Position numbers and translations under genes: made by a program
Assembly (NCBI GenBank): GCA_951406725.2
Contig: OX597816.1
Coordinates: 38,130,001-38,194,000, forward strand
Length of the DNA stretch: 64,000 nucleotides
Reading direction: 5' to 3'
Source of the DNA: Octopus vulgaris
Taxonomy: Eukaryota
In this document: positions 9,263 through 62,482 of the stretch, in pieces
Layout of the letters: each line of letters opens with the position of its first letter
Numbering within the stretch: position 1 is the first letter of the stretch
Notes under the pieces: generated by a model
What the model saw: only the letters and a program-made list of their open reading frames with translations
Told to the model about the DNA's origin: nothing
The model's database searches: none

Positions 9263-9737
9263 GTATATAGAAAGATGAGAAACAGAAAATAGAATTCACA
9301 AGACTCTTTATTCAGAACCACTACGATCGTTTCGACTCATCATGCATCTCTACTTTATGCTTGATATACTGTACAATCGACTGTCATGCATTATTGGTGT
9401 TGAATAAAGAGGCTCGTCAATTCCATTTTCTGTCTCATGTTTTTATATAAACTCTGCGGGTACAAAAGAATTCCTGCAGTAAATCCAGTGGCATATACCT
9501 CCATACTGTTGTTGACATCAGGTAGCCGAATACTGTGAACGGCTTTTAAACAGTATACTACAAGGTGTCTACCCGAATATAAAATTGCTAGCTAGCTAGC
9601 TAGCTAGCTAGCTACCTACCTACCTACCTACCTACCTACCTAGCTACCTACCCACCTACATACCTACCTACTTACCTACCTACCTACTTACCTACCTACC
9701 TACCTACCTACCTACCTACCTACCTACCTACCTACCT

Positions 9738-9967
9738 ATTTCTTTATTACCCACAAGGGGCTAAACATAGAGGGGACAAACAAGGACAGACATAGGTATT
9801 AAGTCGATTCCATCGACCCCAGTGCGTAACTGGTACTTAATTTATCGACCCCGAAAGGGTGAAAAGCAAAGTCGACCTAGGCGGAATTTGAACTCACAAC
9901 GTAACGGCAGACGAAATACCGCAAAGCATTTCGCCCGGCGTGCTAACGCTTCTGCCAGCTCGCCGCC
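9738..9967 (-). mobile_element. SINE family B (Nin/Deu-domain-like core) with Tx1-LINE-like 3' tail, inside a (TACC)n array
   Basis: Head ggcggcgagctggcagaa; core ctttcggggtcgataaattaagtaccag; tail ttgtcccctctatgtttagccccttgtgggtaataaagaaat. Confidence 0.9.
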
Positions 9968-10414
9968 AGTTACCTACCTACCTACCTACCTACCTACCTA
10001 CCTACCTACCTACATACATACATACATACATACATACATACATACATACATAGATACATACATACATACATACATACATACATACATACATACATACATA
10101 CATACATACATACATGTATATATGGAGTTATCGTTTAGTCACAGCTGTGGGTGAATATATTCTTAAAGTCAACTCTTAGTCACTCGCGGGTACTTCTAGG
10201 TTTTATCCCTAATTCAATTCTTAACCAAATTGAAAGCGGTTTATTTTAGCAATGATGGTCTAGTCTTCAGTTACAATTTGAGGTAAAATAACTGAAATTT
10301 GATTCATTAGAAAAAAGTTAGGTCAAAATATTTGAGGTCAAAAATAGGCGAAAAATTGGCTTTGACTCAAAATATCTCAGTTATTTTAATAGAAAAGTAT
10401 ATATTAATAGTCAA

Positions 10415-13256: not shown

Positions 13257-14730
13257 CACACACGCACACACACACGCACGCACGCACGCACGTACGCAAG
13301 TAAGCCGCAAAATATATCTCAATAGATCTCAACCTGTATCTAAAGATCTTGTTTCATTAGTAAGTTTTTTCACCATCTTTGCTGTCACACACATTAAATT
13401 GACATATTGATATTACAATAATAAACTTACGAAATAGCAGACGACAACTGGGTTCTACTCACAACATTTTTATTGTTCCCTTTCAAATATCCATAGGGGT
13501 CTTTAGAGATCCTCAATCTTTCTATTCTATTTGGCTTTTCTTCTCTTCAAAATCCCATTAGGTTGTCATTGAGCTGACACATTGGACTGCAATAGAAGAT
13601 TGGACAGCTGACTGTGGCCGTTGTTTGTGTGGTCGGTCGGTCGGTCGGTCGGTTGGTTGCTTAATTGCTTGGTCTTGCACTTCTCTTTCTCTCTCTCTCC
13701 CACTCTTTCTTTTTTCTTTACTTTTTTTGATACATGGGTATAAAATAGGTAGGAGTGAATGGAATAAATTGTACACTGCTTATAAACACACATACACATA
13801 CAACATACACTCAGAGAAAAAGGAATTATTTTTTAGAGAAATGCTCTTTATATTGGGGAGTTTTAATTTAATTTCCCTTCTTGTTATTGTATACAAATAG
13901 ATCGAGAACTCGACGAAAGCTCCCTCCTCTAAATAGCGGCTCAACCTGTTCGACAAAATAGCAGCAAAATCCCTCCCAAATCACATCAACCCGTATTTTT
14001 GTTTTTCTATTTTTACAGTGGAAGGACGTATCGGTTAATGTAGATCCTAATAGATTATGTTTGATCATTTGTCTGCTCTGTCGGGACTGGCTGAGTAATA
14101 AACACCAAGAATGAAAATGGCACACAACAACAACTGCTACAACAAAAACAATAATGACAGCAGCAGCGGCAGCAGTAGCCGCAGTGGTAGCACAACAACG
14201 ACAATAAGTCTTACATAGAGAAAAGAATAGCCATGAGGTGTTTAGTCAATCCTTTCAGATGACACGACTGTTGTGATTGATTTTCGGTTTGAGTTTCTGA
14301 ATCGATATACGTAAATTTAGGAATCCATGTTACCAAAAGTTCAACGCAGGAATTCCTCTTTTCCACCAATCCAAAGCCCTGGGCGATTTAACCTTTAAAT
14401 ACACCATAATTCAAGTACTGGCGGTTACTTATAAATGATTCTACATTGCTGAGAAGAAACCTTTATATTAGAGGACAGAACGGGCGGTGGTTTGGTTGAA
14501 TTAGTAGAATGTCACTATTACTTCCGGCTCTTTACGCCTTGAGTTCAAATTCTAGCATGATTGATTTTGCCTTTCATCCCCTTGGAGCCAATAAGATAAA
14601 ATACAATGAACTGGGATCGATGTACTCGGCTAGTCTCTCAATTAAAAATCATTGGCTTTATCCCTAAATTAGAAATGATATGTTTAGTAGTAGTCTTTCG
14701 AGTTTGAGAAAGACAGTTCTGCAATTTCTA

Positions 14731-14961
14731 ATTTCTTTATTGCCCACAAGGGGCTAAACATAGAAGGGACAAACAAGGACAGACAAACGGATTAAGTCGA
14801 TTACATCGACCTCAGTGCGTAACTGGTACTTAATTTATCGACCCCGAAAGGATGAAAGGCAAAGTCAACCTCGGCAGAATTTGAACTCAAGAACGTAACG
14901 GCAGACGAAATACCGCTAAGCATTTCGCCCGGCGTGCTAACGTTTCTGCCAGCTCGCCGCC
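14731..14961 (-). mobile_element. SINE family B with Tx1-LINE-like tail
   Basis: Near-identical to the 9738 and 57997 copies. Confidence 0.9.
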
Positions 14962-16914
14962 AATTCTGCAATTTCTTGCTGAACAACCTGGAACAATGAT
15001 TTTATATTGCATATAAAATCACTCCTTCCATCAAATCAACATTGCCTGTGCAGGTGCACAGTGTGCCCCTCGTCAGATGTTGAAGTGATCTCAGAGCAAC
15101 GTGAGATGAACTGTTTTACTCGCCTAACAACAGCTCCGTCCAGGAATCGAACTCACGAACAAGAGATCGTGAGTGCAACACCCTAACCACTAGGCTACGC
15201 ACCCTCACGGTAAAAACAATATAAGAGAGCAGGGGAAAAATGACCGCATTTGTAGAAAAAGTTTGCTCCATAATAACTATATAACAATATTTAACTTCAT
15301 TTTTCTTCGTTCAATGAGTTCAAATCTGTGTGGTCCATCTTCACCTTCCTAAGATCTATGAAATGGTGAAAGTCAAGTTGTGACTGAGTAAGACCACTTC
15401 ATAAACTCAGAGGTAGAAGCAAATGTTCAAGAGTCTAAGAAACTCTTGTGCTTGAGTTTGTTTGAATGGATATTGTTGTACAGCACTGAATCTACTTTTC
15501 AGCTATGAAACCAGTGGCAGAACAGAGGTTGAGGCAATCAGAAACCAGATACACTTCAGGTTTACCTTTTCCTAGAAGAAAGTTCTAACAAGAACTAGGA
15601 GTCCTTCACCCTCGATGGTTCATATGCTAGTTACCACATAGCTGGAACCCTAACAGGCGCTAGGGAAAATGGTGGTTAAGAGGTAGTTCCACACTCCTCA
15701 AAATGCTGGAACTCCCGTAGCAAAGACTCACTAAGGATGCAATTTAAAATCATACCCAGGAGAACATACCCAGTATTTTACGTAAAAAAATAGTCCTTTA
15801 TCAAAGTCAATCCGTTGCGATATCTGTTCAGACTCTCTGTTTTATGCATTCAAATTCTGCTGAGATCAACTTCGTTTTTCATACTGTCGATGGCTTTGAA
15901 TAAAGCACAAATTCAGTGCTGGTATACCCTTCTCTTCTTCTAGCTCTATAACATCCTGATTGTTCCACTAGATCACGGCTACTTAGGGCGACCAGAGAAT
16001 GTATCTACTTGCAACTATATGGGCACCTAAAACTGTTAGCAAAAGCAAGGTAATACTCGACTGCAAGCGATATCTATTGTTTAAATACTCTGAAGACGAT
16101 TTAATTTGCATAGGAGCAAATATAAAGCACCGCTCCCATGTAAGAGATTTCATGACAGAATTACACAATTATATAATACATACACTCAGTTATTGTTATA
16201 GAAGTGAAGTGTGATTTCTACTTTAGTGTCTATATTCAAACAAGGTTGTTAAATAATGGGGACGCGTGGCATTGCTTGACTGTTTCATGGAGATAAGAAG
16301 TAACTGCATGTACAGGATATGTGTAAATGTTGATTATGTGTGAAAGAAAATATCTTCTGCACTGCTACGTCCTGTATAGTGAAAAGTAACAATTAGGAAG
16401 TCATTAATAAGAGGAATAAAGAATGTGGGAGGCAGAACAAAACCCTGAGATACAACAGGGTTGATAGAATATTGGTATAGGTGAGCATAGTGAGCGTACG
16501 TTCGTACGTACGCCACGGTGGTGTCGGCTGGTAAGAGACATCTAATCCAATAAATCAGAATTAAGTTTATGTTGTTTAGCGCAAGATCTTTGAGCTAGAC
16601 TTTAATTATAAACGTTCCATGCAAGATCATTCACTCATTATTAAGGGTGTCAAAGGCTACATTATCCAACATGTCCTTTTCTTAGGACGGTAGGGAGTGA
16701 ATTGAGGGAGAATCGGTAGTATTTATCTCGGGTTGAACAATCACGTAGAAGCTTTGGAGTTCTGAGTGAGCAAATTTGCTAGGAAGTTCTAGTGACAGAA
16801 ACTGTTGAAGGATAAAATATGTAAAATATCTCTATAAACCATTGCCAATACACATACATACATACATACATACATACATACATACATACATACATACATA
16901 CATACATGTATAAT

Positions 16915-17557
16915 GTGGTGAGCCGTCAGAATCGTTAGTACGCCGGGCAAAATGCTTAGCGGCATTTCGTCTGTCTTTACGTTCTGAGTTCAAATTCCAT
17001 CGAGGTCAACTTTCCCTTTCATCCTTCCGGGATACTCTTTACTCTCTTTTTTACTCTTTTACTTGTTTCAGTCATTTGCCTGCGGCCATGCTGGAGCACC
17101 GCCTTTAATCGAGCAACTCGACCCCGGGACTTATTCTTTTTGTAAGTCCAGTACTTATTCTATCGGTCTCTCTTTACCGAACCGCTAAGTAACGGGGACA
17201 TAAACACACCAGCATCGGTTGTCAAGCAATGCTAGGGGGACAAACACAGACGCATAAACACACACACGCGTATACATATATACATATATACGACGGGATT
17301 CTTTCAGTTTCCGTCTACCAAATCCACTCACAAGGCTTTGGTCGACCCGAGGCTATAGCAGAATACACTTGCCCAAGGTGCCACGCAGTGGGACTGAACC
17401 TGGAACCATGTGGTTGGTTAGCAAGCTACTTACCACACAGCCACTCCTGCGCCTATGGATAAAATGGATAAAATAAGTACCAGTTGAGCACTGGATTCGA
17501 TGTAACTGACATACTCCTCCACCCCAAAATCTGCCCTTGTGCCAAAATTTGAAAACG

Positions 17558-17560
<3 letters not shown>
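16915..17560 (+). mobile_element. SINE family B (alternative tail) interrupted by an antisense family C SINE (17034-17453)
   Basis: B core split at cctttcatccttccggga / gataaaataagtaccag around a complete C copy. Confidence 0.8.
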
Positions 17561-41933: not shown

Positions 41934-43159
41934 ACGTCTGTCTCCAAAACTCCAAAGTTGAGTAACGTTTTCAAGCTTGGATTTGTAAACTACGATAAGA
42001 ATAACACTGGTAAACAAAGAATTTGTCCCAAGAAAAAGAATACCTGTATCTTATGTTTTTGCATGCAGAATTCAAAACTAATGTCAAATTATCTGTATCA
42101 CCCACAGTTTCTCTGTTCCACGATATCCCTCTCAGTTCCCCTTACGTGGGCTAAATTTCAGTTAAGCTGTTGAAATGTGAAGCTAACGGTTTAAGAAATA
42201 CGCCTAATTAAAATTTTTATGAATAGAATTAACCTAGTGACGTCATAAATCCAGCTATCAGAGTCAATGAGTCCCAAAAATATATGAAAAGAAAAATATG
42301 TAAAAGTACTAACACACAAAAAAAGCATAGAAATACTAACACACAGAAGTACAGAAAAATAAGTAATATACTAACACACAAAAAAATTAAAACACGTTGG
42401 TAAAACCAACATAGACAACAGCGGCACAGATAACAGTGAACCACAACACAGCGTACGGTTGTCATGGTAACAAGCTGCTAATGGAACGCTGTCTGTTGAT
42501 TGGCTCAAATTACCCAAATTTCCCAACTTTAATTCCAAATAACATTAGATTCTTTAATTTACGACATAAGGTAATTGGTTGATTGTAATCAAGTTCAAAT
42601 TCCACCGAGGTCGACTTTGCCTTCCATCCCTTCGAGGTCGATAAACTAAGTACCAGTTGCGTACTGGGGTCGATAAACTAAGTACCAGTTTCGTACAGGC
42701 TCCCTCCCCCAAAATTTCGGGCCTTGTGCTTAGTGTAGAAAAGATTATTCTACACCACTTAGATTTATTATGCTTTCTATAGACAAAATGGACGAAGATT
42801 TCATTTTTCGTAATTTTCTTTTCGCTTTTCTCGTTCCACTTTTTGGCTTAATTTTCTTCGAGTGTTTTGTTCTCGTTCTTTTTTTTTCTTTTCTTTTTTT
42901 TTTTTCGTGTTTTCTCATTGACTAACGATTTAACTTTTAAATACGTCTAACAATATGCACCGTGCCTGAAAGACTGCTTGGATATATATAACATGTTCTA
43001 TAAATCTGAGAATTTATTGTATCGCTAAATCATGAAGCTATTAGGAGTCCTTTTGTAAATTGTGTTACGGGGACATAAACAAACAAGCACCGATATTCAA
43101 GCGGTGGAGGGACAGACATAAAAACAACGACACGCACACACAACACACACATTTACATA

Positions 43160-46020: not shown

Positions 46021-46313
46021 TAGATATAGATATAGATATACACACACAAAGATAAATTGATAGATACAACTGAGTGGGCAAACAAAAATATGAGACACAG
46101 CCTAGTGTTTTTTTATGTTGATAAGCCTAGTACTTATTCTATTAGTTTGTTCTTGTGAAACCAGTAAGTTTTGTGGATGTAAATAAATGAACAGCAATTG
46201 TGAAGCAGTGGTGAGGGCGAAACACAGACACAAATATACACACATACATTTACATATATACATATATATACGATTGATTTGTTTCAGTTCCTGTCTACGA
46301 AATCCATATATAT

Positions 46314-49040
46314 TGTTGTTGGCATCCTTTTTGTCTCGGGAGACAATGGAGTTGCGCATAAAATAATCTAGTCCGGCTTTTACATTTCATGTCCTAATAC
46401 ATCTCCTGCTGTGGCTGTGTAGTCCTATCCTTGACAAACACTCTCTCTGGCAGGTGCCGCAAATGTAGCGAAGACTTTGCCTGGCTGGTTGTAATGTCAT
46501 ACTTTCTTGTTGACGTCTTTTATTGTCTTTCCATTTCTCCTCTCTCTCTATGTCATTCTTTGTGTTCCCTATTTTACGGTACGTCGCCAATCTCCACGGT
46601 TGCTGGCAACTGCTGCCCAGTTGGTAATATTGCTGTTGCAGGCATTCATGTCCCTTTTGCAAACATCCTTGTATCGTAAGAACGGTCTTCCCACAGACCT
46701 AGTGCCCCTAGCAAGCTCTCCGTTGAGTATGTCCTTGGGGATTCTGCCATCTTCCATACGGCTAACATGTCGAAGCCATCTCATACGTCTTTGTGTGAGG
46801 AGTGTAAACATGCTTGGTATTCCCGCTTGCTTGAGGACATCTTTGTTGGGGACATGATTCTGCCATTTGATGAGAAGGATTTTCCGGAGGCAGCGCAGGT
46901 GAAAGATATTTAGGCGACGTATGGAGTCGTATGGCGTCCAAGTCTCACTTCCATACAGTAGAGTGCTAAGTACACATGCCTGGTAAATCTTCATTTTTGT
47001 GGTCTTAGTCAGCGTATGGTTGTCCTATGCCCGTTTGGAGAGTTGGGCCATCACAGCAGCTGCCTTGCCAATGCGTATATTGAGCTCAGTATCAAGGGAT
47101 AGGTTGTAGGTGACGGTAGAGCCAAGATAGGTAAACTTCTCCACCTCCTGTAGTCTGTGGTCTCCAATATGTTTGTTTGGGATGTTCGATGTAGCCTGAA
47201 TCATGATGTTAGTCTTCTTGAGGCTGATAAATAAGCCAAAGTTGCCACATGCTTGCTCAAAACAGTTGATGAGCCTTTGTAGGGCTTCTTCTGTGTGTGA
47301 TACCAGAGTGGCATCATCAGCAAATAGCATCTACTTGATCAGGACGCTTCTGATTTTGGTCTTGGCACGCAGACGCGAGAGATTGAACAGTTTCCCATCA
47401 CTTCTACTGTGCAGAAACACTCCATCATCTGATGTCACAAAGGCATGTGACAGCAGCAGCGAGAAGAAGATGCCAAATAATGTAGGAGCAAGGACACAAC
47501 CTTGCTTTACCCCATTTTTTATTTGGGAGGCGGCTGATGTTGAACCATTTTGCTATATGGTTCCTTACATATCATCATGGAAAGATGTGATGATCCTCAG
47601 CAGCTTTGGTGGACATCCGATTTTTTGGAGCAGGATGAAGAGGCCTTTTCTACTTACCAAGTCAAAGGCCTTTGTCAGATCAATGAAGGTCATATATAAT
47701 GGCATTTTCTGCTCTCTGGACTTCTCCTGAAGTTGGCGTATGGAGAATATCATGTCAATAGTTGATCTGCTTCTTCTAAAGCCACACTGCGATTCTGGAT
47801 AAATTCGAGAAGCAAGCAGTTGCAGCCTGAGCAGGATAATGCGAGCAGAGGCCTTTCCAACAGTGCTTAGAAGAGATATTCCACGGTAATTGTTATAATC
47901 ACCACGGTCACCTTTGTTTTAGTAAAGCGTAATGATGTTAGCATCCCGTATATCCTGAGGGACTGTACCCTCTTCCCAGCACTGACACAGAAGCTCATGA
48001 ATGTGCCGAAGCAGGATGGTGTTTTTGCCGGTTTTGATGATCTCTAAGGGGATGCCGTCTTTTCCCAGAACCTTGTTACTTGCTAGGGAGTCAATAGCCT
48101 TGGTGAGCTCTGCTATAGATGGCAGACTGTCAAGTTCACACATGACTGGCAAGATCTTGACACCCTCGATTGCAGCCTCAGCTACCGTGGTCTCTCGTGA
48201 GTAGAGATCCTGGTAGTACTCCACCCATCTATCCATTTGCTTGCTTTGGTCCTTGATGAGATCCCCAGTAGTTGATTTCAGAGGGGCTGACTTGGTTGCG
48301 AATGGACCGAGGGCCTTCTTCAAAACGGCATACATCCCACGGGTGTCGCCACTGTCAGCAGCTGACTGGATACTCTGACAGATGTCCTGCCAATACCAAT
48401 TTGCACAGCGTCTGGCAGTCAGTTGGGTTTTATTTCTTGCCTTTCTGAGTTCTTCGAGTGACTTTATAGAAGAATCACTCTTATAGAAGAATTACATCAG
48501 AGCTGCACGCTTTGTTTCGATAACTGTTTCCAGCTCTGAGAGCCCAGCACTGAACAAAATCTGGGTTTTGCCTTTCTCACATGCCGAAAGTATCTATTGA
48601 TGTGGTATACAAAGCTTCCCTGATATAATTCCACCTACTTTCAGCAGAGGTGGTTGGGCAGCTATTGAGGGCAACTTTGATAAAAACAGCAAAACATTGT
48701 CGCAGTGTAGGGTCGGAGGTTCTGGCAGTGTTAATGCGTGGTCAGCCCATTTTCTTGGAGTGATGGACTTTTTAGGTAGAATCCTTACCCTGCTTCATAT
48801 TAGTGAATGATCTGTGTCACAATCCGCGCTGTGGTAACTACGAGTCAGTTGAACAGTATTCAGAAAGGGTCTTCGTGTAATGATGAGATCCAGCTAATGC
48901 CAGTGGTGAGATCTTGGATGTCTCCAAGATGCCTTGTGGGATGTCTTGTTGGCAAAGAATGTGTTAGTGATGCACAGGTTATGGTAGGTGCAAAATTCAA
49001 GTAGTCTCTGGCCATTGTCATTCATGTTGCCAATACCAAA
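46314..49040 (-). mobile_element. 5'-truncated, decayed RTE-clade LINE (APE endonuclease remnant plus RT)
   Basis: FIDLTKAFDLVSR, GVKQGCVLAPTLF, MLFADD, FTYLGS, LLYGSETW, SRIGLHSHSRRC; 3' tail ctccattgtctcccgagacaaaaaggatgccaacaacaa. Confidence 0.93.
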
Positions 49041-49108
49041 ACACATACACTTACATATATACATACATATATATACGATCGATTTGTTTCAGTTCCTGTC
49101 TGCGAAAT

Positions 49109-49172
<64 letters not shown>

Positions 49173-49686
49173 ATACATATATATTTGGAATTTACAAAAG
49201 AAACGAACAAAAGACGAAGACGGGTGTGTAAACAACAAACAGGTTTATTAGTTTAACGCTCCGGACTTAGGAAAATTTATATAGGGAGTACTGCTAATTT
49301 TAAAATTAGATATAGGGGACACAAGAATTCATTTATTCACCCCTATATAAAAAATTTCAGACATTTTAGTATATTGTAAGCATAAATATTTAGCGTCTTA
49401 TAATTTTCTTAAACTTTAAAATATAATTTTTTAGAATATAAAAGCTTTTTGAAAATACGGTCCAGTTAGATGATTAAATCCAATGAACACTTATGCACAA
49501 ACCTGTAATCTTAAATTTTTTTTTCTTTATAGTTGTATATATCAGACAGAATGGAATATTCCCATTGGCTATTATTTGCATGATTAACTGAATTTACCTT
49601 TCAATGATTTTCATTTCTTAGTTAAACGTGGTAATCGTCTTGAAAAACTTGAGAAAATTTTCGATATTCAAAAACTGAACTTTCAC

Positions 49687-49699
49687 CAACTGAATACTC
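49687..49699 (+). repeat. Target-site duplication copy 1 (caactgaatactc); also at 51436-51448 and 56604-56616
   Basis: Exact 13-bp sequence at all three junctions. Confidence 0.92.
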
Positions 49700-51435
49700 G
49701 TCAGTGAAATTTGTTCTGTGTAAATTGATTTAATATCGCGCGAGGCGTTTGCCTCCACGTGTGGAAACCTTCCGAAAAAGGTGAATTGACCCTCTAGTCA
49801 TGGCGACTTACGCGGGGGTCACCGGGAAAAATAATGATTCGTCGATAATCATAAAGGATGTTTTCTTTGAGAAGGATAAACTCAAAGAATATGAAAAGCT
49901 CTTCAAAAGGGAGGGTGATAGCGTGAAGCTAATCCCCCCCCCCCCGCGAAAGCAAAAGAGGACAAAGAAAGCAAGACAGTGACATATAGAACCCAAGACA
50001 AAAATACGAAGAAACTGGCAAGAGTGGAGATAGCCGAAATTGAAAAATGTCTGGGAGACATAATGGGGAAAACAACCTACGTGAGTAGAGGCAAGAAATT
50101 TGGTACGGTGGAGGTGAGATGTGCAACGGAAGAAATTGCAGCCTCACTGGCTACCACTGTACTAAGAGCCGAAAAATTTACAATGTGGCCCTCATACAAG
50201 GGAAGAAGAGGGGTCCGGGTTAAAATCCCGAATATACCCCCAGAAGTGAAAACAGAATGGCTGGCAACAGCTATTCTAGGAGCAGCAGAAGAGGAAGTGG
50301 AGGTGGAATCCTTTAAGGAGTCCAACGCGGTAAACTGGAGAGGATATGGGGTAGAACTGTGTTTGATGGCCACAAAAGAGGACATCGAAAGGTTCCCCTA
50401 CAGAATTGAAATTGAAGATGAAAAAACCCTCAGTGTAATTGTAGAGGGAAGAAAACCAAACTGTTACTTGTGTGGGACAAGGGGGCACATTAAAAAAGAG
50501 TGCCCGTTATACGAATTCGTAGCGGAGTGCGAGCAGGAACTTGAAGAAAAGAAGAATACGGTAAATGAAAAAGAAAACATAGAAAAGGAAACAAAACAAC
50601 AAGAGAAAGGAAATAATAAGTCAATGAAGGAAAAAGAAATAAAAGAAAAGAAAGAAATAGAACCAAAAAAAAAAAAGGAAAAAGAAACAACAGGAAAAAA
50701 ACAAGAGAGAGATCAGAATGAAACGAAAAGAAAAGACGGCACACAAAAGGAAAAAGAAAAGGAACATAAAACACAAGAGAAAGAGAGAAGAGAGAAAGAA
50801 CCAAAAAGACAAGAGAAGGAAGGAGAAAGAAAAGAAGGCAAAAAGAGAGAAAGAGAGAAACAAAGAGAGGAGAACAAGGAAGAAATAAGCCCGAAAAGAA
50901 AAATGAAGGAAAACGTAGGACGGAAACAAGATTACTGCTTCTACAAGTTAGTAACCTTCCATTTCTGCCCTGAAATGAAAGACTTGACATGTAATACGGA
51001 GGGACATATATGGGTCAACAGGATGACCGATCAGTGGCAGGAGACTGCTCTAATCCCCGAAGAAAGAGTCGCTGAGTTCCTCAGAGCTGCCGGAGAGAGT
51101 GTAATATTTTACACGAGTGTTCGAGTGAGAGAGCGGCTGCCTGAGGGCTCAGTGATGGACTTTAGAGAATTGAAAGCTATTATGGAATATGTATAGAATT
51201 GTGAGAGGAAAAAAAAAAAAAAAGAGAAAAACGAAAATATTGTGAAATATATGTGACGAAAATGTAACCTCTGGATTCCGGGGATCGAGTGGACATTTAC
51301 ATCTCATTGTAAATATTCTTTCATATGTCATTTTTTACTTTTATTTTTTCCTTTTCTTGTCATTCGCTTTCTTATTTTAAGTTCCCCGATTGTATTGTCC
51401 CCTCTATGTTCGCCCCTTGTGGGTAGTAATAAAAT
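49700..51435 (+). mobile_element. ORF1-only non-autonomous Tx1/L1-type retrotransposon ('half-LINE')
   Basis: Bounded by 13-bp TSDs; single ORF1, no ORF2; last 48 nt identical to the neighbouring LINE's 3' end. Confidence 0.85.
49800..51196 (+). CDS. Tx1-type ORF1 (gag-like zinc knuckle, Lys/Glu-rich region); one frameshift in the C12 run at 49934-49945
   Basis: MATYAGVTGK start; CYLCGTRGHIKKEC (CX2CX4HX4C); homologous to ORF 51660-52967. Confidence 0.82.
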
Positions 51436-51659
51436 CAACTGAATACTCGTCATAGTGTATAGTGAGTTATTATATTTTTGCCTTGTGTATATTTTCTCCG
51501 TTGTGATCTACTGTGTGTCTAGCCGTCTTTCTGTATTGTTGTACAACTATTGAAGTCGGCCTTCGTGCGAGGGCTTCGTGTTGGTGTTCCCCCCTCCGTG
51601 GGGGAAAAACTATCATTATCTTGGTTGTGCCAAAGGCTTGTTAAAGCCAGTTATCGGAG

Positions 51660-52967
51660 ATGGAATCCCCCATCTCATATTCACCTGTGACTAGTGATGC
51701 AGGATCACCGGCGGTGTCGCCAAAGAAAAAAGAGGCGGGGTCGCCAAAGAAAAAAGATATTCCAGCACCAGCGAAAAAATTTTCGGAAGTAGCTGGTAAA
51801 AAAATTAAAAAAATTAATGTCGAAAACCTAAAGAAACATGCGGACTGTGTGTCAAAAGAGGGCACGGAAGTAACCGTGGCTTCAAACGCCCAAAAACAGG
51901 AAGAAATTACAAAAAGAATAATAATTTATAAGACCTTCAATACAACAAGCAGATCAATACAAAAAATAGAGGAGAAAAAAATCGAAAATTGCTTAAAGCC
52001 GATAATGGATAAGATCACATACATCAATCGAGGGAAGAAATACGGCCCAGTGGAGGTGAGATTCACAACAGAGGAGGTAGCTAAAAAGCTATCCATGGAA
52101 CCAATAAAAGCGGAGGATATTGTTCTCCTAACCCTGTATAAAGGCAAAAGAACTTCAAAGATCACTATGAATAATATTCCGCCAGAAGCGGATGCCGAAG
52201 TTCTGGTGGCAGCAGTTATGGTAGGCCTGGAGGAAAAAATAAACATCCTCCAGGCCACTGTAGAGGAGGAAGAATTCTGGAAAGGGCAGCGGATAATAAT
52301 AGCCATCCAGGCAGAAATACAAACCCTGGAGGAAATTCCAGAGACTCTAAAAATAAGCGAAGAAGATAGAGTCACAGTCTTCGTAGAGGGCAGAAAGCCG
52401 AGGTGCTTCGGCTGCGGTAAGAAAGGGCATGTAAGGGCAGAATGCCAACCCAAACCGCAGGAAGCAGCTCAGCCAAGTGGAAAAGCAGAAGAGGTGCCAT
52501 CAGAAACAGCGCTGGGCGGCCCAGGAGGGACGGCTGAAGGTGTGGAGGTGACAGAGGCAGCGGAACCAGCGGCGGAGGAAAAAAAGAGCGAGGAAACGAA
52601 AAAGGAGGAGGGGTGGTCAAAAATCACTAGAAAAAAAAGAAAAACTGAAACCACCCCTCCCAAAGTAAACCAAAAGAAGAAAAGAGAGTCGTTGAACTCA
52701 TTTATGGCCGTTAAGGCCACGAACAATAGACTCGGTAATGTGTTGGCAGCGATGGCCAAAGTAGAAAAAATAGGGAGGAAAAATGACTATGTATTGTACA
52801 GAATAGGCCGGAAGGATTACGGACGGATAAAGTCCGAATTTTTTCATGACGTAGGCCCGCTCAGAATGGATATAACATCTCCATATATATTCGAGGGCCT
52901 GCGTCAGACTCCCCCACGAGGCCCAGAAAAAGAGACAAACAAAAACCGAACCACTGATATAAGGTAA
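51660..52967 (+). CDS. Tx1-type ORF1 nucleic-acid-binding protein (435 aa)
   Basis: Intact ORF; zinc knuckle CFGCGKKGHVRAEC; stop lies 3 nt before the ORF2 ATG. Confidence 0.88.
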   Translation: MESPISYSPVTSDAGSPAVSPKKKEAGSPKKKDIPAPAKKFSEVAGKKIKKINVENLKKHADCVSKEGTEVTVASNAQKQEEITKRIIIYKTFNTTSRSIQKIEEKKIENCLKPIMDKITYINRGKKYGPVEVRFTTEEVAKKLSMEPIKAEDIVLLTLYKGKRTSKITMNNIPPEADAEVLVAAVMVGLEEKINILQATVEEEEFWKGQRIIIAIQAEIQTLEEIPETLKISEEDRVTVFVEGRKPRCFGCGKKGHVRAECQPKPQEAAQPSGKAEEVPSETALGGPGGTAEGVEVTEAAEPAAEEKKSEETKKEEGWSKITRKKRKTETTPPKVNQKKKRESLNSFMAVKATNNRLGNVLAAMAKVEKIGRKNDYVLYRIGRKDYGRIKSEFFHDVGPLRMDITSPYIFEGLRQTPPRGPEKETNKNRTTDIR

Positions 52968-52970
52968 GTA

Positions 52971-55900
52971 ATGGATTACATTTATGTTGGTTGTTTGAAT
53001 GTGCGCGGCCTGGGAGCAGGCTGGAAGCAAGGTCGCTTCCTGCATGATATCAGGTCGCGTAATTTAGATGTTATTGTTGCTACAGAAACCTGGTTAGAGG
53101 GGCCAAGAGGTCTACTCCCGCTGTTTGACGGCTACGAGAGTTTTTTCTCTCCTGGCAGTCCTACAGGCGGGAGAGGGGTGTTGGTCCTATTAAAAAGAAA
53201 CCGGGTTTCTGAGAAAAAGTTAATTTTTGCAGATCCAGAAGGTAGGCTGGTCGTCATGGATTTGACGTTCAGTAATGGTAAAGTTATCAGACTGGTTGCA
53301 ATTTACGCACCCAACAGTAAAAAAGGGCAAAGTGATTATTTTCGTGATCTAGAAAAATTTCTTGGTACTTCGCATTCATTAGTGGTGCTAGGAGACTTTA
53401 ACACAATTTGCAAAGCGGATGTAGATTGTGTTGGCTCGTGTCCAGATAGGAGAGGTAACAGTGGCTTCATGGAACTGCTAAGCCGCTTTGAGCTAGCAGA
53501 TCCGTATAGGCTGGAATTTCCGAACGCTCCATTGTGGACATGGTCAAACAGCGACGGATCTTCCAGGTCATATATAGATAGAATTCTAATTAGAAAAGTA
53601 GACAGTAAAATAGCTAAGTGTCCACAGTTTTACCCGATCAGCTACAGTGATCATAAAATGGTCACTTGACATAGATAAGGTTAGAAATAGAGGATCCGGT
53701 TACTGGAAACTTAATACGTCCCTTTTGGCGATTAAGGAGTACAAAGACCGGATTAGGAACATAATTCAGAGGGCACTATCCGGTACCATCATTAATAACA
53801 AATGGTGGTACGCCCTCAAACGAGCCATCAAGTTTGAGTCTATTAGATATAGCATAGGAGTAGTGGCTAGAGAGGCTAGAGGGGATAATACTCTAGTTAA
53901 GGAATTAGAGGAAGCCATGAAAACTGGCTCTGCGGCTCAGGTGGCGTCCAAGAGACTGGTGTTAAACCAGCACCTCGAGGCCAAACACATGGGCTGCATT
54001 GTCAGGGCTAGAATCCGCCATATGGGATGTGAAGGAATCAACGCCGTGAGATGGGCCCGAGTGGTGGAAGCTCAGCATGGTAACAGTGCCACGATTCGAT
54101 CTTTGACGAACCAACAAGGTGAGTTGATAAACGAACCCGAGGAGATGTGTGAGGCCTTTCAGGAGCACTTCGCTCAGCTTTTCGGTGAGTGCGGCGGACT
54201 GGATAGGAGGGGGCCTTTACGGACCTACTCGACGGGCTGCCGCGCTTATCGGGGCGAGATGCGGAGGGCTGTGAAGGGCCAATCACGCCTGAGGAGGTGT
54301 TTAAGGCAATGGCGGACTGCGGCGCAGGCAAGGCGCCGGGTTTGGATGGTCTACCCTATGAGTTATATAAGAGTATGCCAGACTTGTTCGGGCACCTACT
54401 GGCGGAGGTCTATGCGAACTGGCAGCAGAACGGGCTTATACCCAGATCTGTGCGCCGGGGAGTAGTGACTCTCGTCAGAAAGGACCCGAGCAAGGGGGAG
54501 TGCATTGATAATTTCAGGCCCATCACTCTGCTAAACACAGAGTTGAAGATTTTGGCCAAAGTGTTATCGAAAAGATTGGCGCGTGTCGCGGATGGTCTGA
54601 TCGGAGAGGCACAGACATGTGCCGTTCCGGGCAGATCCATTCAGGATAATCTCCATCTAATGCGGTACACTATAGAGGGGTTTAATAGTGATTCTGGCAA
54701 GGGTGGGGTACTGGTCCATTTAGACCAATCTAAAGCCTTTGATAGGGTCGACCATCGTTACCTGGTATCTGCCCTGGCACAGTTCGGGCTGAGCCTTGGC
54801 TTGCTCAGGTGGATTATCCAAATGTATGATAACATCGACTCGGTAGTTCGGGTGAACGGCTTCTTGTCGAAGCCGTTCAAAATCAAACGCTCGGTTCGTC
54901 AAGGGTGTCCGCTCTCCCCGCTTTTGTACGTGATGGCTCTAGAGCCATTACTGCGAAAACTGAGCGGCATCCCGAGACAGCCGGGTAATGGAAAATCAGT
55001 GTCAGCGTACGCGGATGACATCACCATCATCGTAACCGAAATGGACCACCTATGTAAAGTAGGCAAGGCCATAGAGGTTTACGAGACGGTGACAGGAGCA
55101 AAAGTTAATCGCGAAAAGTCAGTCGGCTTGCAACTCGGCACCTGGAGAGGCAAGTCGATGCCTCCTGACAGCGTCGTGGGACGTTGGACGGAGGGTCCGA
55201 TTAAATTGCTAGGGGTCTGGTTCGGTCCAGACCTCCAAATAGAGAAGAATTGGAGCGAGGTAACGAGCAAGGTGGCTGCAGTAGCCAAGACCTGGTCTTG
55301 GCGGTGGCTATCCTTGAAAGGGAGGGCGGAGGTGGCCAATGTGTTTATCGCATCGGTTATCACCTACCGCCTTTCCGTCGTTCCTTGCCCCGATTCGTGG
55401 TTGACCAAGTTGGAAAGACAGCTCTTCTACTTCTTGTGGAAGGGTAGGAAACCACTTGTGAAACGCTCTACTTGCTGTCAACAACCGTTAAAGGGTGGGC
55501 TAGGGATGCCTTGGCTGATGATGCGCAGACATGCGCTGAGGTTAAGACATCTGTGGCTCTACCTGGATGGTGAACGGGTGTGGTCTCCGTTAGCAAAACT
55601 GATGTTTCCCAAGTTCACTAGTTTCGGTGGATGGGAAACCTGGTTGAATCGTAGATCGAAACTCGGTACTTGGTACACGGAGTGTCGCAAGGCTCTCCTG
55701 CTATTCCGTCGCTCGGGCAACGCCTGCGGTGGGGGTTCCACCACATTCTTCTATAGAGGGTTGGTAGAGGCGGAATGTGAAGATACCTTGGGGGAAACCC
55801 TAGGTCTCGACGATAATCAGCTGGCCAGTCTGTTCCGACGTACGTTCAAGCCGAGGACACTGGACAACTTCCAGAAGTCTCTGGCATGGCAATGCTACAG

Positions 55901-56360
55901 AGGAGCTCTACCTGTTCGGGATAAACTCGCAAGGCACGGTGGCCAAGACAGTCCGATATGTCCAAGATGCGGGCGGGATAGGGAAACCGTCCCGCACGCT
56001 ATTGTTCATTGTCCGGACGTGTCTGAGGTGTGGGTTTATGCCGAACAGCTGTTGTCAGGTACACGAAGAGTACAGCTGTCGACTGAGTCGATTACAAAAA
56101 TTGACCCACCGGATTTCCTCGTGAATGAAGGTAAGTTTCGTTTTCTCGTTGTAGTAGCAATTGCGAAAGAGGTGATATGGAAGACGAGAGTGAAAGGTTT
56201 ACAGTCAGGCAAGTTCATCTCCGGCCCTGGTTTGATGAATTATTTCATCTTTCACCTGAAAAGGAAGATAGGGCTGGAGAGAATATGCCTGACTAGGAGA
56301 GTGTATGAAGAGCGATGGAAAGATGTGGCACGAAAGTTGCGAGTGAAAGATACAACATAA
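52971..56360 (+). CDS. ORF2 APE endonuclease / reverse transcriptase / CCHC finger; two frameshifts (~53665, ~54210)
   Basis: CLNVRGL, VLGDFN, SYIDRILI, SYSDH; KAPGLDGLP, FRPITLLN, LDQSKAFDRV, VRQGCPLSPLLY, AYADD; CPRCGRDRETVPHAIVHC. Confidence 0.93.
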
Positions 56361-56813
56361 ATGTAATACCAAGCGCAACCAAAAGTATCAGTGGGGAGGC
56401 GGGGCTCGTGGGGTCCGAGCTAAACCCGCACCCACTCCACCTGTAATGTCTTCCGGTCTGTTTCATCATTCGATTTTGTGTATATTATTGTAATTTCATG
56501 TTATTTTTAAATCCGATTTTTTGTAAAAACCATCCGTATGTCTGACCCCACATCAGATTGTATTGTCCCCTCTATGTTCGCCCCTTGTGGGTAGTAATAA
56601 AATCAACTGAATACTCACCATGTAGTGCCTTAATGCTTTTTGCTGGATTTTACCTCGAGAAAGGAACCCCGAGGAAGGGGGGCTGAATTTCGAATACTTC
56701 GTACAACCACTTTTCTGAAACGGCTGCAGGTTAGGAAAAAAATTTTAATCGCCTCTTTCAATTTAGGTTTTTATTTTTCATGTTTATATTCGTATTTCAT
56801 TGTTATGTTTATA

Positions 56814-57379
56814 TTGGGTTGTCCGGAAAGTTCGTTCCGATTTTTAAAGGAAAGTAAAGGTCACTAAATACTTGCCATTACATTTTTAATCAACCAAATC
56901 TGAACCATTTCGTTGAACAATACGTCTCCATCTTTCCTTTACCTTGAAAATATCCTCTTCCCAGAATAGGGGTGGTTTCAAGGCAAAGAATTCGTCAAGG
57001 TATCTTTTTACGTCATCTAAGGAATTGAAATTTTTACCATTAAGACTTTTCTGCAGAGACCTGAATAAGTGGAAATCCAAAGGAGCAATATCTGGGGAAT
57101 AGGGAGGGTGGGGGTAACACATCCCAGCCGAGCTGCAGCAATTTTTGTCTGGTTCCCAAAGCATCAAGTGCCGAAAATGAACTTTCTCATCTTTTATTTT
57201 AAAGGGTTACAGAATTAACACAAGTTATAGGAACATAAACCTTCTTCCACGAAAAGATAGCTTAAACTGTGCTCTAAATGGAGGTGTAGTCAAATCCTAT
57301 TTTATGGACTCAAACATGTTCTAAAATAAGTCGAAAGATAAGCTACTATAAATCGGCATGAACTTTCCGGACAACCCAA
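56814..57379 (-). mobile_element. Internally deleted mariner element
   Basis: TIRs ttgggttgtccggaaagttc / gaactttccggacaacccaa; TA flanks; HPPYSPDIAPLDFHLFRSLQ. Confidence 0.92.
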
Positions 57380-57628
57380 TATTTCTATATTTTTATCATG
57401 AAACTCTTAACATAAATACGTGTATATTCGTATGGAATAATACCTCATGTACTACATCTGAATTTTCTTGTCTGAATGTTTTAAGACAAATGTACGAAAT
57501 TTTTATCGTATACCACATTTTACTAATACTTAGCTCATATACGGAGACAAAAATGTTGTACTATATACTGCAGGTTATCTCCATTAAAATTCTCGTATTA
57601 TATACATTATATATATATATAATATATA

Positions 57629-58341
57629 CACTGGCGAAAATAAATTTAAGACCGATGATAAAAGTTCTATTTCTTACAAAATATTGTTACTAGTCTTTTG
57701 CCGATCTTTATATTGACCAGTCTCCGAGTATAACTTCCACGCTTGCACGCAAGCCGGTTTACTGCACTTTAGTTGCTTGCTGATGTTCGAAAAGGAAACT
57801 TTTTGCTGTAATATACGATTTTTGCTCTCGTGACTGGACTAAGGCTACGTATTAATAAATTGTATAATAACATTAAATTATAACTTTATATGGTGCATTT
57901 AGGCTCGTTGTGTGACCATCCATTTTGGCCAAAAAAATTGCATACATATTACATGGTCTTAAACTAATTTTGCCGGTAAATTTGAAACGTTTATATTACG
58001 TTCTGAGTTCAAATTCCGCCGCGGTCGACTTTGCCTTTCATCCTTTCGGGGTCGATAAATTAAGTACCAGTTACGCACTGGGGTCGATGTAATCGACTTA
58101 ATCCGTTTGTCTGTCCTTGTTTGTCACCTCTATGTTTAGCCCCCTGTGGGCAGTAAAGAAATATATATTAATTTAGTATTAGAATTATTCAAGTTGTATA
58201 AAAATTGTATGCATCATTCGAAAGAGAAATAAATTTTGCATAAGGTGTAAAAGATATAAATAATTTGTATGGTGTTAGTAACAAAATATTTTTTAAGAAA
58301 TAGAACTTTTATCGTCGGTCTTAAATATATTTTCGCCGGTG
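57629..58341. mobile_element. Non-autonomous Tc1/mariner-type element with ~65-bp TIRs, containing a SINE
   Basis: cactggcgaaaataaatttaagaccgatgataaaagttctatttctta and its inverse ending tattttcgccggtg; TA flanks. Confidence 0.85.
57997..58163 (+). mobile_element. SINE family B, 5'-truncated, with Tx1-LINE-like tail
   Basis: gcctttcatcctttcggggtcgataaattaagtaccag core; ttgtcacctctatgtttagccccctgtgggcagtaaagaaat tail. Confidence 0.9.
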
Positions 58342-58349
58342 TATATATC

Positions 58350-60892
58350 TCAGGTCACCCCATAAGTTCTGTCCAAATTTTGGATAAAGAATCCAAGTGA
58401 TCAATTGTTATATTTAATTGAAAGTTAATCATAAATGTACTTTCCCTGATTATCTACGACTTACTTCCATCTATTTACAAGCTTTTTAATCCCATCAATG
58501 TAAAACTCTTTTGGTTTCAAAGCGAAGAACTCTGAAATGTCAGGTTCGACCTCCTCCTGGCTTGCGAAAGTTGTGTCCCCCTAATAATTCTGCAAACTAT
58601 GAAACAAATGGTATCCTGAAGGAGTATGGTCGGGAAAATAAGTTGGATGAAGAAATTTTTCCAAACCGACCTCTTCGATCTTCTGTGATGTGATCTTTGC
58701 ACTGTGGGGTTGCGCATTGTCCTGATGAAACATAACTCGTTTTCGACTCACTAAAGCGGTTCTTTTTTCCTTCAAAGATTGGTTCAAACGCTCTAATTGC
58801 TGACAGTAGACTTGAGCATTGATTGTTGCATTAGGTGGTAACAATATAAAGTGAATTACGCCTTTGCAATCGCACCAGATAGAGTAGAACCTCTTTCCCA
58901 TGAAGTTCCCTTCTCGGTTGTGGTTGAGCATTTTCCCTTTTACCAAGCCACTGTTTACGACGTTTAACATTTCGATAGAAAATCCATTTTTCGTCACAAG
59001 TCTATCGAAAAAGAGTGAAATGAGTTTGCGAGAATGGAGAGAAGAGCAGATGTCAACTCGGGATTTGCGGTTGCTTTCGGACAATACATGAGCCACCTAT
59101 TTTCCAAGTTTAGGAATCTTTCCACGTTGTTGAAGATGACGATGAACTGTTGTATGGCTTGAAGTAAGCTTTATTGCCAATTCTTCAACTGATAATGACG
59201 GATTTTCTTCAAGTAATGCCTCAAGGAGCTTATCATCAAACTCAACTGGACATCCTATTCGATCTTCATCTTCAATTTTGCAAACGATCTCCTGCAAGTT
59301 CTTTCATTCAAGCACTTTCCCATAAACTGAGTGTATGTTTTGAGTCACTTCGGCTGCAGAGTTACCTTTATTGTACTCATAAAGAATTATATGTGCCTTA
59401 AATGCTCCTTGGATACTTCCATGTTGAAAGGGTTTTAATCAAAGCAATTTTAGGGTGTCCACGAAGTCTGGGTACATGGAATAAAATCATAACATAAACA
59501 AATATCAGAAATAATAATTTTCCTTTTTTACTTTTGTTTAAATTAAATAAAAAAATACTTTACTTTTCTAAATTTATTTGTTATTTTTTCTACAGATGAT
59601 CGAATGATGGCTCTGTCTAAAGAAGAAAGAATCCCAGATCGAATGATGGATCTGTCTAAAGAAGAAATAATTGAGTTAGTATTATTAAGTAGACGAGAGG
59701 GATGGTTTTATCGCAAAATTGCCGAAGAATTTAATCTTCGATACCCTTATAGGTAACCTATTTTTTTTACTGCCGTCAGGAAATTGATCAAGAAATTTAA
59801 AGAAACAGGCAGTGTTTTGGATAAACCCCTTTCCGGACGACCAAAGACTTCAGATGAAACGAAAGAGGCTGTCATGGCTAAAGTTTCTGCTAGTCCAAAG
59901 AAATCGCTTCGTCGGACATACACGGTGTTAGATGTTCCAAAACCAACCATCCACAAAATGCTGGTTGAGGAAAAGTTTCATCGCTACAACCTACAGATAT
60001 TGCATCACTTAAATGAAGACGACCCTGATAGACGAATGTAGACGTGCGAATGGTTTTCAGATAAATTGGATGAAAATATCAATTTTACGTAAAACTTTGT
60101 TGTTCAGTGACAAAGCTACGTTTTATGTAAATGGTGAGGTCAACAGACGGAATCTTCTACACTGGTCTCGAGGTAATCCACATTGGATGGATCCATCCAA
60201 ACAGCAAGACAGCAAAAAGGTGATGGTGTGGTGTGGTTTGTGGAAATGTTCTAGGACCCTTCTTCATTGAACATGTAACGGATAAGACTTATGTAAACAT
60301 ATTGAGAGACAAATTAATATCTCAAATTGAGCGCCTAGGCGAGGGCCTTCCGAATTGGTTTCAGCTGTTAGAGATTGGCTTAATGAAACTTTTCTTCACT
60401 GGATTGGAAGAATGGCTCATATGGAAAGGTCCCCTCGTTCACCAGACCTTTCTCCCCTTGATTTCTTTTTCTGGGGTATGTTGAAAGAGAAAGATTACTA
60501 TAAAGATTACAGATTTAAAATATATGAGAGAACGCATTACCAGTCAGTGTGGTGAAATTGATGGCAATGTATACTTATTTAATCAAGTTCACCTGAATTT
60601 TGCAAGGCGCATCAAGTTATGCATTGGAAAATGATGGAAATCACTTTGAAAATATTATTTATTAACATTATAATAAAATTAAATTGGTTTGTTTTAAAAG
60701 TATGTGTTAATCCCCATGTACGCAGACTTTGTGGACACCTTCTATTATTTTGTAAAACAATATTGAATTAGTTTAAACGTACCCAAATGCATAAAAATAA
60801 TTTTAAATCGAATTAGACATTTGAAAATACTATTAAATTTCATTCAAATCTAAAAAGAAAGGTAAAATTGGACAGAACTGATTGGATGACTT
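58350..60892 (-). mobile_element. Mariner transposon (degenerate transposase ~58430-59422) split by a nested element
   Basis: TIRs tcaggtcaccccataagttctgtccaa / ttggacagaactgattggatgacttga; MEVSKEHLRHI, MFHQDNAQPH, YHLFHSLQN. Confidence 0.88.
59451..60743 (+). mobile_element. Nested Tc1/mariner-superfamily element (SPDLxPxD type, DD37D/DD41D-like), degenerate transposase ~59645-60660
   Basis: TIRs agggtgtccacgaagtctgggtacatgg / ccatgtacgcagactttgtggacacct; KKFKETGSVLDKPLSGRP, FSDKATF, RSPDLSPLDFFFWG. Confidence 0.87.
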
Positions 60893-62267: not shown

Positions 62268-62482
62268 AGGCGGCGAGCTTGTAGAATCGTTAGCAAGCCG
62301 GGTAAAATGCTTAGCCGCATTACGTCCGACTTTACGTTCTGAGTTCAAACGCAGCCGGGATCAACTTTGTCCTTCTTCCTTTCGGGGTCGATAAAATAAG
62401 TACCAGTTGAACACTGGAGTGGATGTAATCGACTTATTTCATCATCCGTAATTACTGACCTTGTGCCAAAATTTGAAATCAA
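62268..62482 (+). mobile_element. SINE family B (alternative tail ccttgtgccaaaatttgaaa)
   Basis: ggcggcgagcttgtagaatcgttagc head; cctttcggggtcgataaaataagtaccag core. Confidence 0.85.

What the first reader, a model, noticed from the sequence alone, without database searches (positions are those of the whole stretch)
56556..58163. Nin/Deu-domain SINE shares its 3' tail with the Tx1-clade LINE: third member of the system
Seen: LINE tail ttgtattgtcccctctatgttcgccccttgtgggtagtaataaaat versus SINE B tail ttgtttgtcccctctatgtttagccccttgtgggtaataaagaaat (9738-9783 minus; also 14731 minus and 58118-58163 plus). Both keep a small gccc-cttgt-ggg(t/c) stem-loop. Established: SINEs sharing 3' tails with partner LINEs are typical of 'stringent' CR1/L2/RTE clades, whereas mammalian L1 recognises poly(A). 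Inference: this L1/Tx1-lineage RT (or a close relative) recognises a specific tail and drives an abundant SINE. The SINE copies here are not flanked by the 13-mer, so either a sister LINE mobilises them or target specificity is relaxed.
Basis: partly seen in the sequence, partly recalled or inferred. Interest (0 to 1): 0.75.

Follow-up and report, generated by a model that had tools for sequence, protein, structure and literature searches.

The report
Octopus SINE carries Tx1 LINE tail
A short octopus jumping element (SINE) ends in nearly the same 60-base sequence as a Tx1-type LINE retrotransposon, which likely means that this LINE lineage recognises a specific RNA tail and copies the SINE, a pairing seldom described for L1-type elements.

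Summary
Three SINE copies match the last 46 bases of a Tx1-like LINE and of an ORF1-only element at 83-87% (alignment scores 46-56; shuffled maximum 30). The match extends 16 bases further into 3' UTR found only in the LINE, so it is not just a local duplication. All nine 3' ends examined, four of them SINEs with a different tail, keep a small stem, a five-base loop and the same spacing to the end. One SINE copy has an exact 13-base target-site duplication, the same length as the repeat around the LINE. The host is Octopus. The SINE likely rides on this Tx1 lineage, probably a less site-specific sister family, through tail recognition. This is inferred, not shown: the hairpin is thermodynamically weak, no whole genome was available, and the direction of tail transfer is open. 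The 'Nin/Deu' label is unconfirmed, and the SINE's position near the LINE looks incidental. SINE-LINE tail sharing is a known kind; L1-clade cases exist in maize and Chlamydomonas. I found no animal Tx1 tail pair in ten paper searches; Repbase could not be checked.

The parts
49687..49699 (+). 13-mer, left copy of the target-site duplication
   Evidence: exact copies at 49687, 51436, 56604
49700..51435 (+). ORF1-only (HAL1-like) non-autonomous element; ORF1 with zinc knuckle (ATG at 49800, main frame 49922-51196, frame break between them)
   Evidence: zf-CCHC; 35% identical to the LINE ORF1 over 186 aa; 10 Octopus vulgaris protein clusters, the best four at 88-93%
51388..51435 (+). 48-base tail of the ORF1-only element, identical to the LINE tail
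51436..51448 (+). 13-mer between the two elements
51449..56603 (+). Tx1-like LINE: ORF1 51660-52967; ORF2 broken into three frames in this copy (endonuclease 52971-53669, linker 53614-54465, RT and zinc finger 54207-56360); 3' UTR without poly(A)
56532..56547 (+). LINE-only 3' UTR block shared with the SINE but not with the ORF1-only element
   Evidence: 14/16, 14/16, 13/16 to the three SINE copies; 1-2 of 2000 shuffles reach this
56556..56603 (+). LINE terminal tail with predicted 4-pair stem and 5-base loop (about 56580-56592)
56604..56616 (+). 13-mer, right copy of the target-site duplication
9737..9969 (-). full-length SINE with LINE-like tail, inside a (GGTA)n microsatellite
14730..14963 (-). 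full-length SINE with LINE-like tail and exact 13-base target-site duplication (14717-14729, 14964-14976)
57996..58163 (+). 5'-truncated SINE with LINE-like tail, inside an inverted-repeat element (arms 57622-57685 and 58285-58348)
62268..62480 (+). same SINE head and body with a different tail (same loop, different stem); similar copies near 42590-42750(+), 17460-17560(+), 39690-39945(-), 14470-14680(+)

Best explanation
An octopus SINE subfamily ends in about 60 bases that match the 3' end of a Tx1-like LINE, and it is likely copied by the reverse transcriptase of that LINE lineage, which would recognise this tail rather than a poly(A) run. Shown: the shared tail, its extension into LINE-only UTR, the ORF1-only element with the same tail, the fixed loop-to-end spacing, a 13-base duplication around one SINE. 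Inferred: the ORF2 protein binds the small hairpin near the RNA end and starts target-primed reverse transcription about 15 bases downstream of the loop, as shown for fish L2 elements (PMC4176376). The ORF1-only element and the SINE would both borrow ORF2 in trans. Because the SINE copies sit at unrelated sites while the LINE and ORF1-only element share one site in a multi-copy repeat, the working partner is probably a sister Tx1 family with the same tail and looser targeting.
For: Tail match beyond chance. 51-53 identical bases between each SINE end and LINE 56532/56537-56603, with a 10-base gap; the 16-base LINE-only block has its three best matches in the whole window in the three SINE copies. 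That block begins at about the point where this SINE subfamily departs from the other-tailed copies. Two LINE-type elements with ORF1s only 35% alike keep the same 48-base end. 9 of 9 ends examined have stem, 5-base loop, 10 bases, then RAAAW; the spacing was not used to pick them. If those nine hairpins are homologous, 29 of 32 cells pair and 3 of 4 pairs change on both sides (covariation 0.69; 1 of 500 shuffles; slid controls at most 0.29). Exact 13-base duplication around the 14.7 kb SINE. The RTE-type LINE end in the window scores 18 against the SINE tails versus 46-56 for the Tx1 end. In 4 of 4 public runs laid, many distinct contigs cover both elements and both flanks; one contig joins RT sequence (54615) directly to the tail start (56558), and two join the tail end to other sequence. 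The match meets the standard used for bivalve SINE-LINE pairs, 35-61 bp at 72-95% (PMC11481361).
Against: No functional test. The hairpin is not more stable than shuffles in most copies, and among the LINE, ORF1-only and three matching SINE tails there is no double-sided change; the covariation comes wholly from setting two tail types against each other, in effect one event, and the other tails can also be aligned to an upstream part of this SINE's tail. The LINE-only block weakly resembles 1 of 5 other-tailed SINE copies (13 of 1000 shuffles), which leaves the direction of transfer open; the block was found after looking at an alignment, so its shuffle counts are optimistic. SINE flanks share no target motif with the LINE. 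The nearest relatives with DNA in hand (43% identity, 6 of 17 loci aligned) lack the tail (scores 16-20). No second complete LINE 3' end from Octopus could be read: no genome was held and the contig tables were cut (24 of 6550 loose ends shown). Only one LINE of another clade could be compared.
Confidence: 0.68

Rival explanations
1. The tail moved the other way or sideways: the Tx1 family picked up the end of an already abundant SINE (or of another LINE), and the SINE's true partner is a LINE of another clade not present in this window.
For: The hairpin architecture is shared by all SINE tail types in the window, and the LINE-only block weakly resembles one other-tailed copy. CR1, RTE and R4 families are reported as recently active in O. 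vulgaris (PMC13282606).
Against: The LINE carries none of the SINE body upstream of about the subfamily switch point; two divergent LINE-type elements both keep the tail; the 13-base duplication fits L1/Tx1 or RTE better than CR1/L2 (own knowledge), and the RTE end tested does not match.
Confidence: 0.14
2. The SINE is mobilised by Tx1, but the tail is inherited baggage or a 3'-end processing signal (it holds an AATAAA), and the enzyme does not read it strictly.
For: Weak folding energy; AATAAA near the end of the LINE, the ORF1-only element and 2 of 3 SINE copies; distant relatives keep a similar terminal AATAAAATCA but not the hairpin (5 of 6 loci).
Against: A SINE presumed to be transcribed by Pol III has no need of a Pol II signal; four other-tailed copies keep loop and spacing without AATAAA; no poly(A) follows any of the five tails.
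Confidence: 0.12
3. Local artefact: the 61-base repeat (tail plus 13-mer) is one long target-site duplication or a local capture, and this LINE family does not own the tail.
For: The two tails are 100% identical although the elements are otherwise very different.
Against: SINE homology runs into LINE-only UTR outside the 61-base repeat; the repeat's 5' edge falls within 2 bases of the core SINE homology edge; a contig from another sample joins RT sequence to the tail.
Confidence: 0.06

Closest known systems
Maize ZmSINE2/ZmSINE3 with LINE1-1_ZM; Chlamydomonas SINEX-3_CR with L1-1_CR (PMC3472496, PMC3747384; passages read)
   Same: L1-clade LINE sharing a 3' end with a SINE; hairpin with conserved loop and variable stem proposed as the recognition signal.
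   Different: Plants and an alga, ending in simple repeats; here an animal Tx1-type element with no poly(A), a site preference, and an ORF1-only partner.
Crocodilian SINEU with Tx1-Mar (PMC4494074; passages and one section read)
   Same: Tx1-clade LINE as the proposed driver of a SINE; tandem insertions sandwiching a target-site duplication inside a multi-copy repeat.
   Different: That link rests on shared target and 5' heads; the paper found no LINE similar to the 3' half of SINEU-1, and SINEUs end in poly(A). Here the tail is shared and the target is not.
Stringent L2 elements UnaL2, ZfL2-1, ZfL2-2 (PMC4176376; passages read)
   Same: Works-like model: ORF2 reads a 3' stem-loop, with the loop giving specificity and stems interchangeable.
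   Different: L2 clade and experimentally shown; here Tx1 and untested.
Bivalve conserved-domain SINEs with CR1, CR1-Zenon, L2 and Nimb partners (PMC11481361, PMC4824008; passages read)
   Same: Mollusc SINEs with one body and exchangeable LINE-derived tails; similar length and identity of the tail match.
   Different: No L1/Tx1 partner among the four clades reported; the word Tx1 does not occur in the main text of PMC11481361.
HAL1 (half-L1) ORF1-only elements (PMC5753468, PMC5786205; passages read)
   Same: Non-autonomous element coding only ORF1.
   Different: Here it derives from a Tx1-type ORF1 with a zinc knuckle and shares a specific tail and target with the LINE.
Octopus SINEs OK, OR1, OR2 (Ohshima and Okada 1994; seen only as a citation) and the tRNA-Core / tRNA-Deu classes in octopus repeat annotations (PMC8967140, PMC13282606)
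   Same: The SINE family itself is very probably already in these libraries.
   Different: Sequences not available to compare; the texts read name no partner LINE.

Membership tests
Tx1 clade LINE | APE endonuclease, L1-like RT and C-terminal zinc finger in ORF2 | tested here: met
   PF03372, PF00078, PF13966; best solved relative human L1 ORF2p, E 4e-44, ahead of R2 at 3e-28
Tx1 clade LINE | ORF1 with CCHC zinc knuckle (feature recalled) | tested here: inconclusive
   zf-CCHC at E 0.071, below cut-off, in the LINE ORF1; above cut-off in the ORF1-only element
Tx1 clade LINE | RT groups with named Tx1 elements in a tree | tested here: inconclusive
   No named Tx1 reference could be fetched; top Atlas cluster is 'Transposon TX1 149 kDa', score 0.97; the quick tree only places it with Argonauta and two unnamed proteins
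Tx1 clade LINE | Target preference, often for a repeat | tested here: inconclusive
   Two elements in tandem at one 13-mer; flanks covered by several distinct contigs and joined without the elements in 4 of 4 runs; only one filled locus seen whole
Stringent SINE/LINE pair | SINE 3' end homologous to the LINE's extreme 3' end | tested here: met
Stringent SINE/LINE pair | Conserved stem-loop with compensatory changes | tested here: inconclusive
   pairing kept in 29 of 32 cells; double changes only between tail types; weak folding
Stringent SINE/LINE pair | Tail required for retrotransposition | not testable with these tools
   needs an assay
Stringent SINE/LINE pair | Overlapping age profiles and insertion signature | not testable with these tools
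   no genome; one 13-base duplication on a SINE equals the LINE's length
tRNA-derived SINE | [quoted passage not shown] | tested here: inconclusive
   A- and B-box-like motifs by eye (consensus recalled), head ends pair (z -2.5); no ARAGORN or Rfam tRNA hit
tRNA-derived SINE | Short, interspersed, non-coding, with target-site duplication | tested here: met
   about 234 bases; 11 family loci in 64 kb; duplication at 14.7 kb
Nin/Deu-domain SINE | Central domain homologous to the Nin-DC/Deu consensus | tested here: inconclusive
   The core 16-base Nin motif printed in supplements has 0 matches at up to 3 mismatches. Two 7-mers of the Nucella Nin domain occur in order in 4 SINE copies, but the pattern was chosen after comparing the sequences. 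The full consensus could not be aligned (SINEBase files unavailable).
CORE or Meta SINE | CORE or Meta central motif | tested here: inconclusive
   Short motifs gave no match inside any SINE copy; single-species motifs are a weak test, and the motif was partly recalled

The most novel reading that the evidence does not exclude
The whole octopus SINE family, in all its tail variants, rides on Tx1-clade LINEs that read an invariant five-base loop on interchangeable stems. Site-preferring Tx1 elements would then be the engine of the octopus SINE expansion (SINEs are 11.6% of the O. vulgaris genome, PMC13282606), and the first animal L1-type lineage with strict tail recognition, with RNA recognition uncoupled from target specificity.
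Probability: 0.3. Interest if true: 0.75.

Novelty: new variant of a known kind. Interest (0 to 1): 0.52.

Why it matters
The idea that L1-type elements began as strict tail readers and relaxed to poly(A) in mammals and plants rests on very few pairs: 3 SINEs with L1 tails among 58 pairs surveyed, all in plants or an alga (PMC3747384). An animal Tx1 case with three classes of element sharing one tail gives a direct test of that model with a short, mutable RNA signal. It would also name a candidate driver for octopus SINEs, a large and lineage-specific part of the genome for which the papers read name no partner.

Tried and rejected
No whole genome was held. Scans for more copies of the LINE or tail found nothing in metagenome or viral contigs. 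The bacterial genome scan gave 17 loci from one assembly, apparently animal DNA within it, 43% identical; that genome has no SINE match (best E 3.2). Searching protein collections with off-frame translations across the tail gave nothing useful: none, and two unrelated repetitive proteins. Rfam found no family at gathering score in the related loci and only chance-level hits in the window, the flanks and the SINE, so a known RNA gene as target is not supported. No RNA holder was listed among the runs. Summed contig depth at the tail without the SINE-type extra base was 4-6 times that of the two UTR bins, which would fit further tail-bearing families, but the tool states that such depth is no copy number, so I do not count it. 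Earlier findings had nothing by sequence or place. Ten paper searches showed no report of an octopus SINE-Tx1 tail pair; the library lacks most subscription papers and Repbase notes. Motif searches in supplements of four papers found no copy of this SINE; one file each of PMC4824008 and PMC4758252 and all SINEBase files could not be read and may bear on the domain label. The careful tree did not finish; only the quick tree was seen.

Full report
Setting. The window is octopus DNA: the ORF1-only protein is 88-93% identical to its four best Octopus vulgaris matches, and the best named ORF2 relative is from Argonauta at 58%. No whole genome was held, so the evidence comes from the window, four public sequencing runs and protein collections.

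Anatomy. A 13-mer occurs three times (49687, 51436, 56604). Between the first two lies a 1.7 kb element coding only an ORF1 with a zinc knuckle. Between the second and third lies a 5.2 kb LINE with ORF1, endonuclease, RT and zinc finger, its ORF2 broken into three frames in this copy. The RT is closest to human L1 ORF2p among solved structures and to a cluster named for Tx1 in the Atlas. The two ORF1s are 35% identical, and the only long DNA match between the elements, apart from 74 bases at 72% in ORF1, is an identical 48-base 3' end with no poly(A). In 4 of 4 runs laid, many distinct contigs cover both elements and both flanks, and contigs join the flanks without the elements. The pair therefore sits in a multi-copy repeat, as described for other Tx1 elements (PMC4494074).

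The SINE. A 236-base query finds 11 family loci in the window: 3 with the LINE-like tail, 5 with other tails, 3 cut before the tail. The head has Pol III-like boxes by eye and folds (z -2.5), but ARAGORN and Rfam do not call it a tRNA. The Nin/Deu label is unconfirmed. The core Nin motif printed in supplements has no match. Two 7-mers of a snail Nin domain do occur in order in 4 copies, but I chose that pattern after seeing both sequences. Short CORE and Meta motifs do not match. Octopus SINEs are machine-classed mainly as tRNA-Core and tRNA-Deu (PMC8967140).

The tail match. It is 83-87% over 47 columns, scoring 46-56 against at most 30 for 40 shuffles. The main worry was that tail plus 13-mer form one 61-base local duplication, so that the LINE would not own the tail. 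An alignment showed a further block: LINE 56532-56547, outside that repeat and absent from the ORF1-only element, matches the three SINE copies at 14, 14 and 13 of 16 bases. Only 1-2 of 2000 shuffles reach this, and these are the three best matches in the window. The SINE's last 63 bases thus correspond to the LINE's last 72, starting about where this subfamily leaves the other-tailed copies. The block was found after the fact, and it weakly resembles 1 of 5 other-tailed copies (13 of 1000 shuffles), so the direction of transfer is likely but not certainly LINE to SINE. One contig from another sample joins RT sequence straight to the tail start. I could not read a second complete LINE end, because the contig tables were cut.

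The hairpin. The 4-pair stem with a 5-base loop is possible in all five matching tails but is not more stable than shuffles in most. The stronger sign is architecture. In 9 of 9 ends examined (the degraded 14.5 kb copy was left out of the count but fits by eye) the loop is followed by 10 bases and then RAAAW. The other-tailed SINEs keep the loop with a different stem. Counted on that alignment, 29 of 32 cells pair and 3 of 4 pairs change on both sides. This reflects about one event between two related groups and depends on the homology assumed; an alternative alignment exists.

Insertion signature. The 14.7 kb SINE has an exact 13-base duplication, the same length as the LINE's. The other two matching copies lie in a microsatellite and in an inverted-repeat element, with no clear duplication. 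None shares the LINE's target. The only other LINE found in the window does not match the tail.

Mechanism. Most likely (0.68) a Tx1-lineage ORF2 binds the terminal hairpin and copies LINE, ORF1-only and SINE RNAs, as shown for L2 elements (PMC4176376). The SINE's scattered sites suggest a sister family with looser targeting; 13 recently active L1-Tx1 families are reported in O. vulgaris (PMC13282606). The binding and copying steps are inferred. Rivals are capture of the tail by the LINE with another clade as true partner (0.14), Tx1 mobilisation without strict recognition (0.12), and local artefact (0.06).

Comparison. Tail sharing between SINEs and LINEs is a known kind. For the L1 clade a survey of 58 pairs lists three SINEs, in maize and Chlamydomonas (PMC3747384; PMC3472496). 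Tx1-driven SINEs are known in crocodilians, linked by target rather than tail (PMC4494074). Bivalve SINEs use CR1, CR1-Zenon, L2 and Nimb (PMC11481361). Ten searches found no octopus or other animal Tx1 tail pair; Repbase notes and the 1994 octopus SINE paper could not be seen. What I saw of each paper: passages of PMC3747384, PMC3472496, PMC4176376, PMC11481361, PMC5804259, PMC3531059, PMC5786205, PMC8967140, PMC5753468 and PMC11203168; passages plus one section of PMC4494074; passages, one section and two supplement parts of PMC4824008; passages and three supplement parts of PMC4758252; parts 1-2 of 3 of PMC13282606. Earlier scan notes include a similar unproven SINE/L1 tail case in a protist and two Tx1-in-repeat cases; I did not test them and do not count them as support.

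Verdict. This is a new variant of a known kind, interest 0.52. The bolder reading, that Tx1 drives the whole octopus SINE family through an invariant loop, has probability about 0.3 and interest 0.75.

Noticed in passing
window 49687-49703, 51436-51452, 56604-56620: Both elements start with the same four bases after the 13-mer, and an element-free contig in run X1 reads through those four bases into the right flank. The duplication may be 17 bases with two changes in the right copy, or the elements may carry target-like 5' ends.
   Followed up: partly
window about 49260-49699 and 56604-56805: The flanks are themselves a multi-copy repeat of unknown kind, joined without the elements in 4 of 4 runs; one contig has the tail joined about 24 bases further upstream in the same repeat. 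No Rfam family and no long inverted repeat across the flanks.
   Followed up: partly
In 5 of 6 loci checked, a motif like our LINE's end junction follows the 3' UTR.
   Followed up: partly
window 49700-51435: The ORF1-only element is a dispersed family whose copies are annotated as uncharacterised Octopus vulgaris proteins on several large scaffolds.
   Followed up: partly
window 56811-57382 and 57622-58348: Two inverted-repeat elements (36- and 64-base arms) lie right of the LINE; the second holds the truncated SINE.
   Followed up: no
window about 46300-49050 (-): Decayed RTE-type LINE (clade by my reading of its frames) upstream of the Tx1 pair; its 3' end does not match any SINE tail tested.
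   Followed up: partly
window 4201-4743 and 58581-59096: Tc1/mariner-type transposase remnants.
   Followed up: no
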